A stretch of 64,000 nt of DNA, taken from assembly GCA_035415725.1 (NCBI GenBank), contig DAOOGN010000001.1:77382-141381 (forward strand), written 5' to 3'. Position numbers and translations under genes: made by a program. Source of the stretch: Anaerolineae bacterium. GTDB taxonomy: Bacteria > Chloroflexota > Anaerolineae > B4-G1 > SLSP01. The notes under the pieces were generated by a model. It made no database searches and was not told the DNA's origin. It saw only the letters and a program-made list of their open reading frames with translations. This document shows positions 30,126-31,791 of the stretch, piece by piece. Position 1 is the first letter of the stretch; every line of letters begins with the position of its first letter.

Positions 30126-31791
30126 ACAATTCCTTGCGCCGCCGGTGTTCGAGGAAGACGAAGAGAAGAGTCGGGTAGCCGGCCTTGCCAATCTGATTAT
30201 TCTGTCGGTCATCGCTCTTCTCAGTGTGGCTTCCGTCATCGTTGTCCTGGTTTTGCATATCTATGCTCTCATGGGTGCCGTCTATGTGGGCATGGTTCTG
30301 CCCTTGTTGGGTGCTCTATGGCTGGTGCGACGTGGGCATGTGCGCGCTGCCGGATGGATAACGACGATTGCTCTGTGGGTTGTTTTGGCCGTGATGGGTT
30401 TCTTCGTCGGGGGCGTCATTAACGCCAGTTTTACCACAATGATCATTGTGATTATCATTGCGGCGTTGTTGCTGGGCGCCCGGGCCGGCTTAGTTTTTAC
30501 TGCCATCAGTATGGCGGCGGTCGCCTTTGCCTATATCAGTGAACTTATCGGTATCCTGCCGCCGGCGCCGGGGGCGAACAGTACGGTCAGCTATTTCATT
30601 AACCATCTCCTCAACTACGGGGTTGCCGGCGCTCTGCTGTACGTGGCGGTGAATGGGTTGACCTCTGCCTTGCAGCGCGCCAGGCGTTTGACTGCTGAGT
30701 TAGAGTTACAACAAGAGCAATTGCAATTACTGGTGCAGCAACGCACCCGCGATTTGGAGCGCAATGCTAACTATCTCCACGCCACCATGGCGGTGGCGCG
30801 TGAATCGGCGGCGGCGATAGGCGCTCCTCAGATACTGCTCGCGCGCATGGCAAACGTCATTCAGGAACAATTTAATTTTTATCATGTAGGTCTCTACTTA
30901 CTGGATGAAGCCGGTGAGTGGGTTGAATTACGCGCCGTGGCCGGGGCCGGGCAGTCTTTGTTGGAGCGAGGACTTCGTCTGCGGGTGGGTATTGAAGGCA
31001 TGGTGGGCGATGTCGCGCGCCGAGGCGCCTATCACCTGGCAGCGGATGTCGATCAGGATTCCACTTACCTGCGTGTCGCTGAACTGCCGGACACCCGTTC
31101 TGAGTTAACCCTCCCCTTGCAACTGGCTGCTGGTGTCATCGGCGTGTTGGATATACAAAGCGCTGAAACGCAAGCATTTATGGAGCAGGATATACCTGCT
31201 TTTCAGGCACTCGCCGATCAAATCTCGGTCGCCATCAGTAACGCCCGCCTGCTCGAACAGTCCCGACAGGCGGCGGAGGTAGAGCGGCGCGCTTACGGGG
31301 CACTGACCGGGGAGGCGTGGGAAAATATGCTCCGCGGGGGTCAAGTCTCGGGATTTTATAGCAATGCACGTACAACGGCACCCGCCGCCGTCGATCTCTG
31401 GCAACCGGAGATGCACATGGCCTTGCAGACCGGCAGCCTTGTCCATAATGAAAGTGCGGCACATCGTCTGGCTGTGCCGGTGAAAGTGCGCGGCGAGGTA
31501 ATCGGCGTCGTCGACTTTGCCAAACCCGGTGAGGGGAGTACATGGACGACGGAGGAAGTGACTCTGGCCGAATCGCTGGCCGAACAACTGGGGGTGGCGC
31601 TGGAAAGCGCTCGTCTGTATCAAGATTCGCAACGCCGTGCGGCGCGTGAACAGATGACGCGCGAAATCACCGGCCGTATACGTGAGACGTTGGATGTAGA
31701 GACCGTCTTGCAAACGGCGGCGCGCGAGATCGGGGAAGCATTGGGATTCCTTGCCCTTGACGTGCGGTTGGATGTCGGAAAGCAGACGTGA
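30109..31791 (+). CDS. Multi-TM plus GAF-GAF sensory protein of the 'IKQFLAPPVF' N-terminal subfamily, no output domain
   Basis: ATG at 30109 (MWMRIKQFLAPPVFEEDEEKSR) is preceded by AGGAGG and overlaps the upstream stop. Six to seven TM helices. The GAF reads EQFNFYHVGLYLLDEAGEWVELRAVAGAGQSLLERGLRLRVGIEGMVGDVARRG...LPDTRSELTLPLQLAAGVIGVLDIQS. A second GAF and the tail follow. Confidence 0.85.
   Translation: MWMRIKQFLAPPVFEEDEEKSRVAGLANLIILSVIALLSVASVIVVLVLHIYALMGAVYVGMVLPLLGALWLVRRGHVRAAGWITTIALWVVLAVMGFFVGGVINASFTTMIIVIIIAALLLGARAGLVFTAISMAAVAFAYISELIGILPPAPGANSTVSYFINHLLNYGVAGALLYVAVNGLTSALQRARRLTAELELQQEQLQLLVQQRTRDLERNANYLHATMAVARESAAAIGAPQILLARMANVIQEQFNFYHVGLYLLDEAGEWVELRAVAGAGQSLLERGLRLRVGIEGMVGDVARRGAYHLAADVDQDSTYLRVAELPDTRSELTLPLQLAAGVIGVLDIQSAETQAFMEQDIPAFQALADQISVAISNARLLEQSRQAAEVERRAYGALTGEAWENMLRGGQVSGFYSNARTTAPAAVDLWQPEMHMALQTGSLVHNESAAHRLAVPVKVRGEVIGVVDFAKPGEGSTWTTEEVTLAESLAEQLGVALESARLYQDSQRRAAREQMTREITGRIRETLDVETVLQTAAREIGEALGFLALDVRLDVGKQT

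What the first reader, a model, noticed from the sequence alone, without database searches (positions are those of the whole stretch)
31570..31791. Every family member ends in a conserved C-terminal tail that looks like the first helix and strand of an additional, truncated GAF
All 22 GAF-family proteins terminate with L(Y/F/L)(Q/E)(D/E)(T/S)QRRAAREQ..(E/R)IT.RIRETLD.E.VL.TA..E......L.....V.V.L. The example in this span is LYQDSQRRAAREQMTREITGRIRETLDVETVLQTAAREIGEALGFLALDVRL. In the multi-GAF proteins the same module occurs internally as the N-terminal helix leading into each next GAF, as in ...QRRASRLLAAAEISRVATSILTLDELLPQAVNLIRERFDLYYAGIF. Each protein therefore ends with a dangling GAF N-cap (helix alpha1 plus strand beta1). 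N-terminal helices usually form the GAF dimer interface, so this tail may be a docking or dimerisation element for hetero-oligomer assembly within the array.
Basis: partly seen in the sequence, partly recalled or inferred. Interest (0 to 1): 0.7.

Follow-up and report, generated by a model that had tools for sequence, protein, structure and literature searches.

The report
GAF-stub tail ending output-less bacterial sensors
Twenty neighbouring sensor proteins of an uncultured Anaerolineae bacterium each end in the first ~50 residues of an extra GAF domain that is never completed; this stub sits where related kinases carry their dimerising kinase core, so it is probably their pairing or docking end.

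Summary
The tail is real. Twenty of the 24 co-directional genes in the window end in a ~48-residue module, TQRRAAREQ..EIT.RIRE.LD.E.VL.TA..E....L....V.V.L. That is 20 of the 22 GAF-family proteins, not all 22, because the two histidine kinases lack it. The module is homologous to the helix-helix-strand N-cap of GAF domains. Its closest solved relatives are the N-termini of phytochrome and cyanobacteriochrome GAFs, including the 'RIT' helix, which mediates dimerisation in SyB-Cph1. In 139 Chloroflexota loci it is C-terminal in 839 of 848 cases and never shares a protein with a kinase core. My alternative, that the tail completes a circularly permuted last GAF, was tested and rejected. Covariation puts 103 of the top 227 couplings inside the tail and 4 between tail and the rest, so the tail behaves as an autonomous block. 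Complete GAFs show the opposite pattern. Its variable positions also diverge faster than the core. Two AlphaFold2 runs disagree: one gives an extended helical spine, the other folds the tail back as a strand. Best reading: a retained GAF stub acting as the self-association or docking end of output-less sensors. The partner is unknown, and hetero-oligomer assembly within the array is untested. This is a new variant of a known element, of moderate interest.

The parts
30829..31236 (+). g13 complete GAF domain (aa 263-398 of the ORF starting at 30043)
   Evidence: Pfam GAF/GAF_2/GAF_3 match, E ~1e-19. Family HMM 149 bits over positions 3-137. AF2 gives six strands at pLDDT >95.
31237..31617 (+). 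g13 last GAF-like domain: a long linker helix (..ERRAYG..EAW..ML), a short beta-hairpin (GFYS..), the beta5-beta6 hairpin (LAVPVKVRGEVIGVVDF) and helix alpha5 (..LAEQLGVALESARLY)
   Evidence: Family GAF HMM matches only positions 29-137. Covariation 87S-139F (rank 2) and 86Y-157E shows that its own GFYS strand pairs with beta6 and contacts alpha5.
31627..31770 (+). g13 tail (aa 529-576): SQRRAAREQMTREITGRIRETLDVETVLQTAAREIGEALGFLALDVRL, comprising alpha1' (RIT-like helix), alpha2' and the predicted strand beta1'
   Evidence: Tail HMM 71 bits. hhalign to GAF N-caps P 2.9e-7. Matches residues ~3-68 of phytochrome/CBCR GAF chains at 30-35 bits.
31771..31791 (+). g13 six-residue post-tail end (DVGKQT) and stop codon. 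In paralogues and homologues this segment is 6-48 aa; in the window's paralogues it is acidic or Pro-rich and poorly conserved.
   Evidence: median 16 residues after the tail. AF2 pLDDT <50.
3399..3542 (+). tail of g02
   Evidence: tail HMM 54.7 bits
5110..5253 (+). tail of g03
   Evidence: 54.2 bits
7729..7872 (+). tail of g04
   Evidence: 58.2 bits
9811..9954 (+). tail of g05 (this protein has no GAF detectable with the family HMM)
   Evidence: 46.7 bits
13183..13326 (+). tail of g06
   Evidence: 54.0 bits
15608..15748 (+). tail of g07
   Evidence: 62.7 bits
18466..18609 (+). tail of g08
   Evidence: 61.8 bits
21384..21527 (+). tail of g09
   Evidence: 58.1 bits
25645..25785 (+). tail of g10
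   Evidence: 55.7 bits
27030..27173 (+). tail of g11
   Evidence: 65.7 bits. 81% identical to the g12 tail, with 37/39 identical codons among identical residues.
29910..30053 (+). tail of g12
   Evidence: 67.6 bits. In AF2 run 2, helix 2 and the strand have pLDDT ~85.
33337..33480 (+). tail of g14
   Evidence: 69.7 bits
36744..36887 (+). tail of g16
   Evidence: 68.6 bits
38437..38580 (+). tail of g17
   Evidence: 64.4 bits
40198..40341 (+). tail of g18
   Evidence: 67.7 bits
44603..44746 (+). tail of g19
   Evidence: 58.0 bits
46023..46166 (+). tail of g20
   Evidence: 65.7 bits
47836..47979 (+). tail of g21
   Evidence: 50.6 bits
53436..53579 (+). tail of g23
   Evidence: 66.2 bits
42773..42916 (+). 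g19 aa 781-828: the only strong internal copy of the tail-type N-cap, here followed by a small complete GAF-like domain (to aa 933)
   Evidence: 34 bits. Sequence and GAF HMM alignment.

Best explanation
The tail is the retained N-terminal piece of a phytochrome/cyanobacteriochrome-type GAF repeat: an RIT-like helix alpha1', a helix alpha2' and a strand beta1'. The rest of that repeat is absent. The tail is fused in register to helix alpha5 of the last GAF-like domain. It therefore occupies the position that the DHp/kinase core occupies in the histidine-kinase relatives of the same operon. It behaves as an autonomous helix-turn-helix(-strand) unit rather than as part of the preceding domain. 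The most likely job is self-association. In a parallel dimer it would extend and cap the helical spine as a small helical bundle. It would hold each of the ~20 co-expressed, output-less sensors in a defined dimer and present the only common surface through which they could signal. Shown here: the conservation, the homology to the GAF N-cap, the terminal position, the mutual exclusivity with kinase cores, the covariation autonomy, the fast co-varying evolution of its variable positions, and the helical prediction. Inferred only: dimerisation (by homology to the RIT helix), pairing specificity, and any downstream partner.
For: Tail profile scores 47-71 bits at 20 C-termini. The tail is terminal in 119/120 database homologues and in 839/848 hits across 139 Chloroflexota genome and metagenome loci. 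hhalign to the window's complete GAF N-caps gives P 2.9e-7 over 55 collinear columns. The tail portion of a terminal-module profile (A2) matches residues ~3-68 of solved phytochrome/CBCR GAF chains (8w26 35 bits, 6ozb 30 bits, also 2lb5, 6bhn, 6uv8, 3oov). In 8W26 that segment is the alpha1(RIT) helix, which forms the dimer interface, and the deltaRIT protein runs as a monomer on SEC (PMC11264168). AF2 run 1 predicts alpha5 and alpha1' as one 46-residue helix, then a 16-residue helix. A kinase core and a tail never occur in the same ORF: 0 of 847 tail ORFs in the loci and 0 of the top 150 library representatives, which split into 65 stub only, 46 kinase only and 39 neither. In g24 the same alpha5 ending (ALQTAILYQDAQ) runs into the DHp His box. 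Covariation gives 103 within-tail versus 4 tail-to-rest couplings in the top 227 (Meff 529). Complete GAFs at similar depth give 15 within-cap versus 54 cap-to-core. The distal tail reaches only 49% identity where core windows reach 58-67%, yet keeps a 36% floor among the most distant paralogues. Its identity matrix correlates with the core at r 0.29, against 0.61-0.71 for equal-sized core windows.
Against: No dimer was modelled or measured. AF2 run 2 folds alpha2' and beta1' back onto the last GAF-like domain at pLDDT ~85. A lone strand with two helices is not an obviously stable fold. The block-like covariation could partly reflect modular recombination of tails rather than contacts; recent conversion is seen for g11/g12. 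The RIT helix in 8W26 packs against alpha2 and the last helix of its own complete GAF, and the tail lacks that GAF. The invariant Arg of R-I-T is mostly Glu or Gln in the tails.
Confidence: 0.45

Rival explanations
1. Cis latch. Helix alpha2' and strand beta1' fold back and dock on the last GAF-like domain of the same chain as a C-terminal cap. Docking and undocking could be the signalling switch, analogous to the J-alpha helix of LOV2.
For: AF2 run 2 (the g12 terminal module alone) gives helix 166-181 and strand 185-190 at pLDDT ~85. DSSP calls the strand as strand or bridge, so it has a beta partner, and the only other strands in the model belong to that domain. Weak couplings link the end of the linker helix to alpha2' (74E-210I, 77L-214L).
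Against: AF2 run 1 does not dock the tail. To dock it, run 2 has to melt the conserved distal alpha1' (QISAQVTARMRESLD, pLDDT <50 to 69). That segment is strongly coupled to alpha2' and beta1' (194R-220D, 195E-219L, 193I-202V). The best tail-core coupling is rank 161 at z 3.3, which is about chance level for 8256 pairs. The beta1 slot next to beta6 is already filled by the domain's own GFYS strand (87S-139F, rank 2).
Confidence: 0.2
2. The tail of one paralogue docks on a GAF of another paralogue, building hetero-oligomers among the ~20 co-operonic sensors.
For: The genes are tightly packed with 4-nt overlaps, so co-translation is plausible. Adjacent genes have slightly more similar tails (48% versus 41%; pairs at 70% identity or more are 4.7% versus 0.6%). 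The fast, internally co-varying tail positions would suit a pairing code.
Against: No GAF lacking its own N-cap and first strand was found as an acceptor in the window. The two most similar tail pairs in this window are explained by recent gene conversion (37/39 identical codons). The nearest-neighbour tail lies in the same locus in only 10 of 419 cases. Inter-protein covariation was not tested.
Confidence: 0.15
3. Common-partner docking. All tails present the same conserved surface (TQRRAARE..R.R..LD) to one shared downstream protein, for example the hybrid kinase g24 at the end of the array. Many sensors would then feed one output, much as chemoreceptor C-terminal tethers recruit shared enzymes (the chemoreceptor analogy is from my own knowledge).
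For: The proteins have diverse sensor modules (MASE11, dCache-HAMP, LacI-type PBP, PAS) and no recognised output domain. The proximal tail is the most conserved stretch of the terminal module across paralogues and keeps 50% identity even among the most distant pairs. The window's array is bracketed by two kinases.
Against: Only 10 of 63 loci of at least 15 kb contain a kinase-core ORF, although arrays are longer than the fetched windows. The same ALExARLY..QRRA junction is a generic GAF-GAF linker in thousands of multi-GAF proteins, so its conservation may be structural. No partner was identified.
Confidence: 0.12
4. Inert vestige. The tail is a scar of gene fission or truncation of multi-GAF proteins and has no function of its own.
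For: The junction is the normal repeat boundary of giant multi-GAF proteins. Truncation just after beta1 could arise by chance.
Against: It is retained, with its length and its end point after beta1' preserved, in 839 proteins from 139 loci. Synonymous sites are largely randomised between paralogues (about 40% identical codons among identical residues). Terminal tails score 47-71 bits, against 14-23 bits for the eight junction copies in the giant multi-GAF kinase P0121, the one such protein examined.
Confidence: 0.05

Closest known systems
N-terminal alpha1(RIT)-alpha2-beta1 segment of PAS-less phytochrome and cyanobacteriochrome GAF domains (for example SyB-Cph1, PDB 8W26; PMC11264168)
   Same: The sequences align collinearly: reiterirealdveavLrtAvreLgraLgaervvvrL against NRITHQIRQSLELDQILRATVEEVRAFLGTDRVKVY, at 30-35 bits. 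The order of elements is the same: helix, helix, strand. The homologous helix is an experimentally shown dimerisation element, since deltaRIT is monomeric.
   Different: In the known proteins the segment precedes a complete, bilin-binding GAF and packs on that GAF's last helix. Here nothing follows except 6-48 poorly conserved residues and a stop codon. The Arg of R-I-T is usually Glu or Gln. The host proteins are Chloroflexota sensors, and I saw nothing pointing to a chromophore.
Helical-spine junctions of tandem GAF and GAF-PHY proteins (PDE2A/5/6, CyaB2 1YKD, bacteriophytochromes)
   Same: AF2 run 1 predicts alpha5 running without a break into the next lead helix. Foldseek's best hits to that model are these tandem-GAF and phytochrome structures. 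The junction profile hits 13,072 library clusters, many with 8-15 internal copies per protein.
   Different: In those proteins every junction leads into another full domain. Here the last junction leads nowhere, and it is more conserved (47-71 bits) than the eight junction copies in the one giant multi-GAF kinase examined, P0121 (14-23 bits).
DHp (HisKA) dimerisation domain of histidine kinases
   Same: It has the same topological position, directly continuing the alpha5 helix of the last GAF (g24..ALQTAILYQDAQ..FMANMSHELRTPL). It is mutually exclusive with the tail. It is also a helix-turn-helix element. Within-element covariation has been used to map homodimer specificity in DHp (from my own knowledge, not checked here).
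   Different: The tail has no phospho-acceptor His box and no Pfam HisKA match, and no ATPase domain follows it. Sequence homology points to GAF N-caps, not to DHp.
J-alpha helix of LOV2 and other C-terminal flanking elements of PAS/GAF sensors
   Same: This is a functional analogy only, and only for the fold-back rival: a C-terminal element that may dock on the sensor core (AF2 run 2).
   Different: There is no sequence relation, and docking is not supported by covariation.

Membership tests
GAF domain (Pfam PF01590 / PF13185 / PF13492) | Sequence match to the N-terminal helix(es) and strand beta1 of the domain | tested here: met
   hhalign P 2.9e-7 over 55 columns against 23 complete GAFs of the window. 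30-35 bits to the N-termini of solved GAF chains. Pfam's own GAF model is too weak on 54-57-residue tail peptides: 1 of 10 at E 0.09, profile positions 2-27.
GAF domain (Pfam PF01590 / PF13185 / PF13492) | A complete alpha/beta core (strands beta2-beta6 and the closing helix) following the N-cap | tested here: not met
   A stop codon follows 6-48 residues after beta1' in this window and in 119/120 homologues. In the 139 loci the tail lies within 70 residues of the stop in 839/848 hits. The next gene starts 16 nt later and encodes an unrelated N-terminus with a Pfam MASE11 match.
RIT-motif helix of PAS-less phytochromes | The conserved 15-residue motif with invariant Arg-Ile-Thr | tested here: inconclusive
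   The tail aligns to the motif. Tail consensus at the three positions is E64%/Q18%, V48%/I42% and T71%. Ile/Val and Thr are kept, Arg is not.
RIT-motif helix of PAS-less phytochromes | Lies immediately N-terminal to a bilin-binding GAF and bundles with that GAF's alpha2 and last helix | tested here: not met
   No GAF follows the tail. The tail is C-terminal.
RIT-motif helix of PAS-less phytochromes | Mediates dimerisation | not testable with these tools
   Only monomer AlphaFold2 was available, and the two runs disagree.
Circularly permuted GAF (my own hypothesis) | The preceding domain lacks its own first strand, and the tail strand fills the slot next to beta6 | tested here: not met
   The domain's own GFYS strand co-varies with beta6 and alpha5 (87S-139F rank 2, 86Y-157E). 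No tail-core pair rises above chance. AF2 run 1 leaves the tail undocked.
Histidine-kinase DHp / HisKA | The H-box with a phospho-acceptor His, followed by an ATPase domain | tested here: not met
   No conserved His. No HisKA hit at E up to 10. The tail never co-occurs with a kinase core.
Any curated family covering the tail itself (Pfam-A, NCBIfam) | A significant match to a model dedicated to this C-terminal module | tested here: not met
   Pfam gives only chance-level hits. NCBIfam gives only sub-threshold partial matches, to the Tlr1612 phosphodiesterase (profile 272-315) and MadS kinase models.

The most novel reading that the evidence does not exclude
Split-GAF signalling. The tails would be trans-acting N-caps that insert their helix-strand into an incomplete GAF of a shared hub protein, such as a g24-type hybrid kinase encoded elsewhere in the array or genome. 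Dozens of output-less sensors would then compete or cooperate to complete one kinase's regulatory domain, giving a many-to-one integration device based on fragment complementation. My data do not exclude this. I could examine only about 20 kb per locus, inter-protein covariation was not testable, and the tail's autonomy from its own protein is what such a mechanism would predict.
Probability: 0.06. Interest if true: 0.85.

Novelty: new variant of a known kind. Interest (0 to 1): 0.55.

Why it matters
These Anaerolineae genomes carry long arrays of up to 20 or more paralogous sensors per operon. The sensors combine many different input modules with GAF domains but have no recognisable output. 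The stub is the only element common to all their C-termini, and it replaces the kinase core of their relatives. Understanding it is therefore the key to how this large, unstudied signalling family transmits information. It would also be a natural example of a conserved, functional domain fragment. In practical terms, it defines a new C-terminal module that domain databases currently leave unannotated.

Tried and rejected
1. Circular permutation (the tail supplies the missing helix and beta1 of the last GAF). This was suggested by the family HMM matching the last GAF only from position ~29-40. It was rejected by covariation (87S-139F, and no tail-core signal) and by AF2 run 1.
2. Degenerate DHp/HisKA helix. 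The eye-level similarity EIT.RIRETLD versus NMSHELRTPLN was not borne out: no HisKA hit, and profile evidence points to GAF N-caps.
3. Tail conservation as an artefact of gene conversion. Clear recent conversion was seen for g11/g12 and weaker for g14/g16. Other pairs share about 40% of codons at identical residues. The tail's nearest neighbour lies in the same locus in only 10 of 419 cases.
4. Neighbour-pair tail matching as evidence for hetero-pairs. The effect is small.
5. Looking for a curated family or a literature precedent. Pfam and NCBIfam have none. Searches for circularly permuted, partial, truncated or split GAF domains, and for MASE11 with Anaerolineae, found nothing relevant.
6. 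Cluster look-up for taxonomy of the top library hits returned no organism names.
7. The search for related loci with the 20-sequence alignment failed because no conserved stretch was long enough. A 6-sequence alignment worked.
8. Model coordinates are not exposed, so I could not see which strand the tail pairs with in AF2 run 2.
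Full report
CONTEXT. The window is from an uncultured Anaerolineae bacterium. The protein containing the finding is 100% identical to a 'GAF domain-containing protein [Anaerolineae bacterium]'. It carries 24 large co-directional genes, which I number g01-g24 (coordinates 19..60920). They are separated by 4-nt overlaps or short gaps. 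Two are histidine kinases: g01, and g24, which is 2413 aa with many GAFs, HisKA/HATPase and two receiver domains. Two are ABC_sub_bind proteins (g15, g22). The other 20 combine varied input modules with one or more GAF domains and have no recognised output domain. The input modules include MASE11, dCache_1-HAMP, LacI-type periplasmic-binding-protein folds without an HTH, and PAS.

THE OBSERVATION. The quoted peptide is at 31609-31770, and the gene stops at 31791. Aligning the last 95 residues of the 20 proteins gives an ungapped 48-column block, (T/S)QRRAARE(Q/R)...(E)(I/V)T.R(I/M)R..(L)D.E.VL.TA..E....L.....V.(L/I). It is followed by 6-48 poorly conserved, often acidic or Pro-rich residues. 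A profile of the block scores 47-71 bits at each of the 20 C-termini. Conservation is not explained by recent DNA homogenisation. Apart from g11/g12 (81% identical, 37/39 identical codons among identical residues) and, more weakly, g14/g16, paralogous tails share only about 40% of codons at identical residues.

IS THE TAIL A GAF N-CAP? Yes, at the sequence level.
- hhalign of the tails against the window's 23 complete GAFs, extended upstream, aligns 55 collinear columns. These cover the lead helix, the second helix and the first strand. Probability is 93% and P is 2.9e-7. The shorter comparison gave P 2e-4.
- A profile of the terminal module was searched against PDB sequences. Its tail portion matches residues ~3-68 of phytochrome- and cyanobacteriochrome-type GAF chains at 30-35 bits (8w26, 6ozb, 2lb5, 6bhn, 6uv8, 3oov). 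The stretch from beta5 through the tail also aligns collinearly with the GAF-to-PHY junction of 8w26.
- NCBIfam places the tail on the pre-GAF segment of the Tlr1612 phosphodiesterase model.
- The tails are closer to this phytochrome/CBCR type of N-cap than to their own proteins' internal N-caps, which score 15 bits or less. The exception is g19 aa 781-828 at 34 bits, where a small complete GAF follows.
- In the 8W26 paper this segment is the alpha1 helix carrying the 'RIT motif'. It bundles with alpha2 and the last helix of the GAF, and sister RIT helices form the dimer interface. Deleting residues 2-29 turns the dimer into a monomer on SEC (PMC11264168).

DISTRIBUTION. One scan each of genome and metagenome contigs returned 139 loci. 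Those with organism titles are all Chloroflexota: Anaerolineae, Anaerolineales and Thermoflexales. The loci carry 848 tails at 25 bits or more. Of these, 839 lie within 70 residues of a stop codon, with up to 10 per 20-kb locus. Of 120 database homologues of g13, 119 end in the tail. A profile of the alpha5 end plus the tail hits 13,072 clusters of the 1.84-billion-protein library, 5,914 of them at E 1e-10 or better. The top hits are giant multi-GAF proteins with 8-15 internal copies of the junction. Among the best 150, 65 end in a stub and lack a kinase core, 46 have a kinase core and no stub, and none has both. The same exclusivity holds in the loci, where 0 of 847 tail ORFs carry a kinase core. 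In g24 the identical alpha5 ending (ALQTAILYQDAQ) runs into the DHp H-box. The tail therefore sits where the kinase's dimerisation domain sits.

MY ALTERNATIVE, AND WHY I DROPPED IT. The GAF directly before each tail matches the family GAF profile only from position ~29-40 onward, and it starts right after the previous domain. This suggested a circularly permuted GAF, with the tail supplying the missing helix and strand. I tested the idea by mean-field direct-coupling analysis on terminal modules, first with 523 sequences and then with 704 (Meff 417 and 529).
- The domain's own short GFYS strand is strongly coupled to beta6 and alpha5 (87S-139F at rank 2, 86Y-157E), so the slot is occupied in cis.
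- No tail-to-core pair exceeds what chance gives. The best is rank 161 at z 3.3 among 8256 pairs.

THE TAIL IS AUTONOMOUS. Of the top 227 couplings, 103 are inside the 50-residue tail and 4 link it to the rest. As a control, 557 complete GAFs from the same loci at similar depth show the opposite pattern: 15 couplings within the N-cap and 54 from cap to core, including alpha2-alpha5 and beta1-beta6 pairs. The within-tail couplings connect the distal alpha1' (187-198), alpha2' (199-214) and beta1' (216-221). This is consistent with the folded-back geometry of a GAF N-cap. The tail's pairwise-identity matrix is only weakly correlated with that of the core, at r 0.29 against 0.61-0.71 for equal-length core windows. 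Where core windows reach 58-67% identity, the distal tail reaches only 49%. It nevertheless keeps a 36% floor among the most distant paralogues. So invariant positions are mixed with fast, mutually compensating ones. Caveat: such a block pattern can also arise if tails recombine as units. However, nearest-neighbour tails are in the same locus in only 10 of 419 cases.

STRUCTURE PREDICTION. The two AF2 runs disagree.
- Run 1 used g13 aa 240-582 with 127 sequences and reached pLDDT 86. It gives a six-stranded GAF and a smaller GAF-like domain. Alpha5 and alpha1' form one continuous 46-residue helix (aa 503-548). A 16-residue helix follows (aa 552-567, pLDDT about 66-70). The final 15 residues are coil and no strand forms. 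Foldseek's best matches are tandem-GAF proteins and phytochromes.
- Run 2 used the g12 terminal module alone and reached pLDDT 78. It ends the helix right after RRAARE and turns QISAQVTARMRESLD into a low-confidence loop. It places alpha2' (166-181) and a real strand (185-190) at pLDDT ~85, which implies pairing with the domain's sheet.
Having to melt a conserved, strongly co-varying helix in order to dock the distal part fits either a genuine latch or contacts that really belong between chains. The two cannot be told apart here.

INTERPRETATION. The best-supported reading (confidence about 0.45) has three parts. The tail is a retained RIT-type GAF N-cap. It extends the helical spine in place of a DHp. 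It works as an autonomous self-association or capping module for sensors that otherwise lack an output. Its fast, co-varying positions would suit a pairing code among about 20 co-expressed paralogues. The vestige is contradicted by the scale and precision of conservation. What is shown: homology, position, exclusivity with kinase cores, autonomy, and helical propensity. What is inferred: dimerisation, specificity and any partner.

NOVELTY. The GAF N-cap, the RIT helix and helical-spine junctions are all known. A conserved stub of one, standing alone as the common C-terminus of a very large family of output-less sensors, is not covered by Pfam or NCBIfam. I also found no description of it in the searchable literature. 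I rate it a new variant of a known kind, with interest 0.55.

Noticed in passing
window 19-60920 (+): 24 co-directional genes with ATGA-type 4-nt overlaps or gaps under 130 nt. They form one operon-like array of 20 paralogous output-less sensors, bracketed by a HAMP-GAF kinase (g01) and a 2413-aa multi-GAF hybrid kinase with two receiver domains (g24).
   Followed up: partly
window 27030-27173 versus 29910-30053: The tails of adjacent genes g11 and g12 are 81% identical in protein, with 37/39 identical codons among identical residues, whereas their terminal modules are far less alike (g11 36% and g12 46% identical to g13's). This points to recent 3'-end gene conversion or segmental copying. 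g14/g16 show a weaker version (25/36 codons).
   Followed up: yes
window 33603-34727 and 48052-49137: Two ABC_sub_bind (PF04392) genes are interspersed in the array, each directly upstream of a sensor gene with a HAMP domain (g16 and g23). They may be dedicated ligand-binding partners.
   Followed up: no
window 7954-10035, 10165-13374, 15802-18657, 21589-25827, 27240-30125: Five of the sensors start with a LacI-type Peripla_BP_3 sugar-binding fold, and Pfam reports no DNA-binding HTH for them. The fold is fused instead to GAF domains and the tail, which is an unusual use of a repressor's effector domain.
   Followed up: no
window 7954-10035 (g05): This protein carries the tail (46.7 bits) but no GAF domain detectable with the family HMM. 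The roughly 300 residues between its PBP fold and the tail are unassigned.
   Followed up: no
window 42773-42916 (g19 aa 781-828): This is the only strong internal copy of the tail-type N-cap (34 bits). It is followed by a small complete GAF-like domain, so it may show what the 'missing' domain of the stub looks like.
   Followed up: partly
library hits P0121-P0270: The alpha5-end plus N-cap junction profile hits 13,072 protein clusters. The best are 2000-2800-aa proteins with 8-15 tandem junction copies. Some of these giants (P0122, P0143, P0132) also end in a terminal stub after 10-13 GAF-model matches.
   Followed up: partly
terminal module, columns 185-223 of the g13-based alignment (window 31663-31770 in g13): The distal tail diverges faster than the adjacent core among close relatives (49% against 58-67% identity) but keeps a higher floor than expected among distant ones. 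Its identity matrix is only weakly correlated with the core's (r 0.29 against 0.61-0.71).
   Followed up: yes
window 61679-62797 (-): The first gene after the array lies on the opposite strand and has only a weak PHP-domain hit (E 7e-4). The other minus-strand ORFs up to 63950 have no Pfam match.
   Followed up: no
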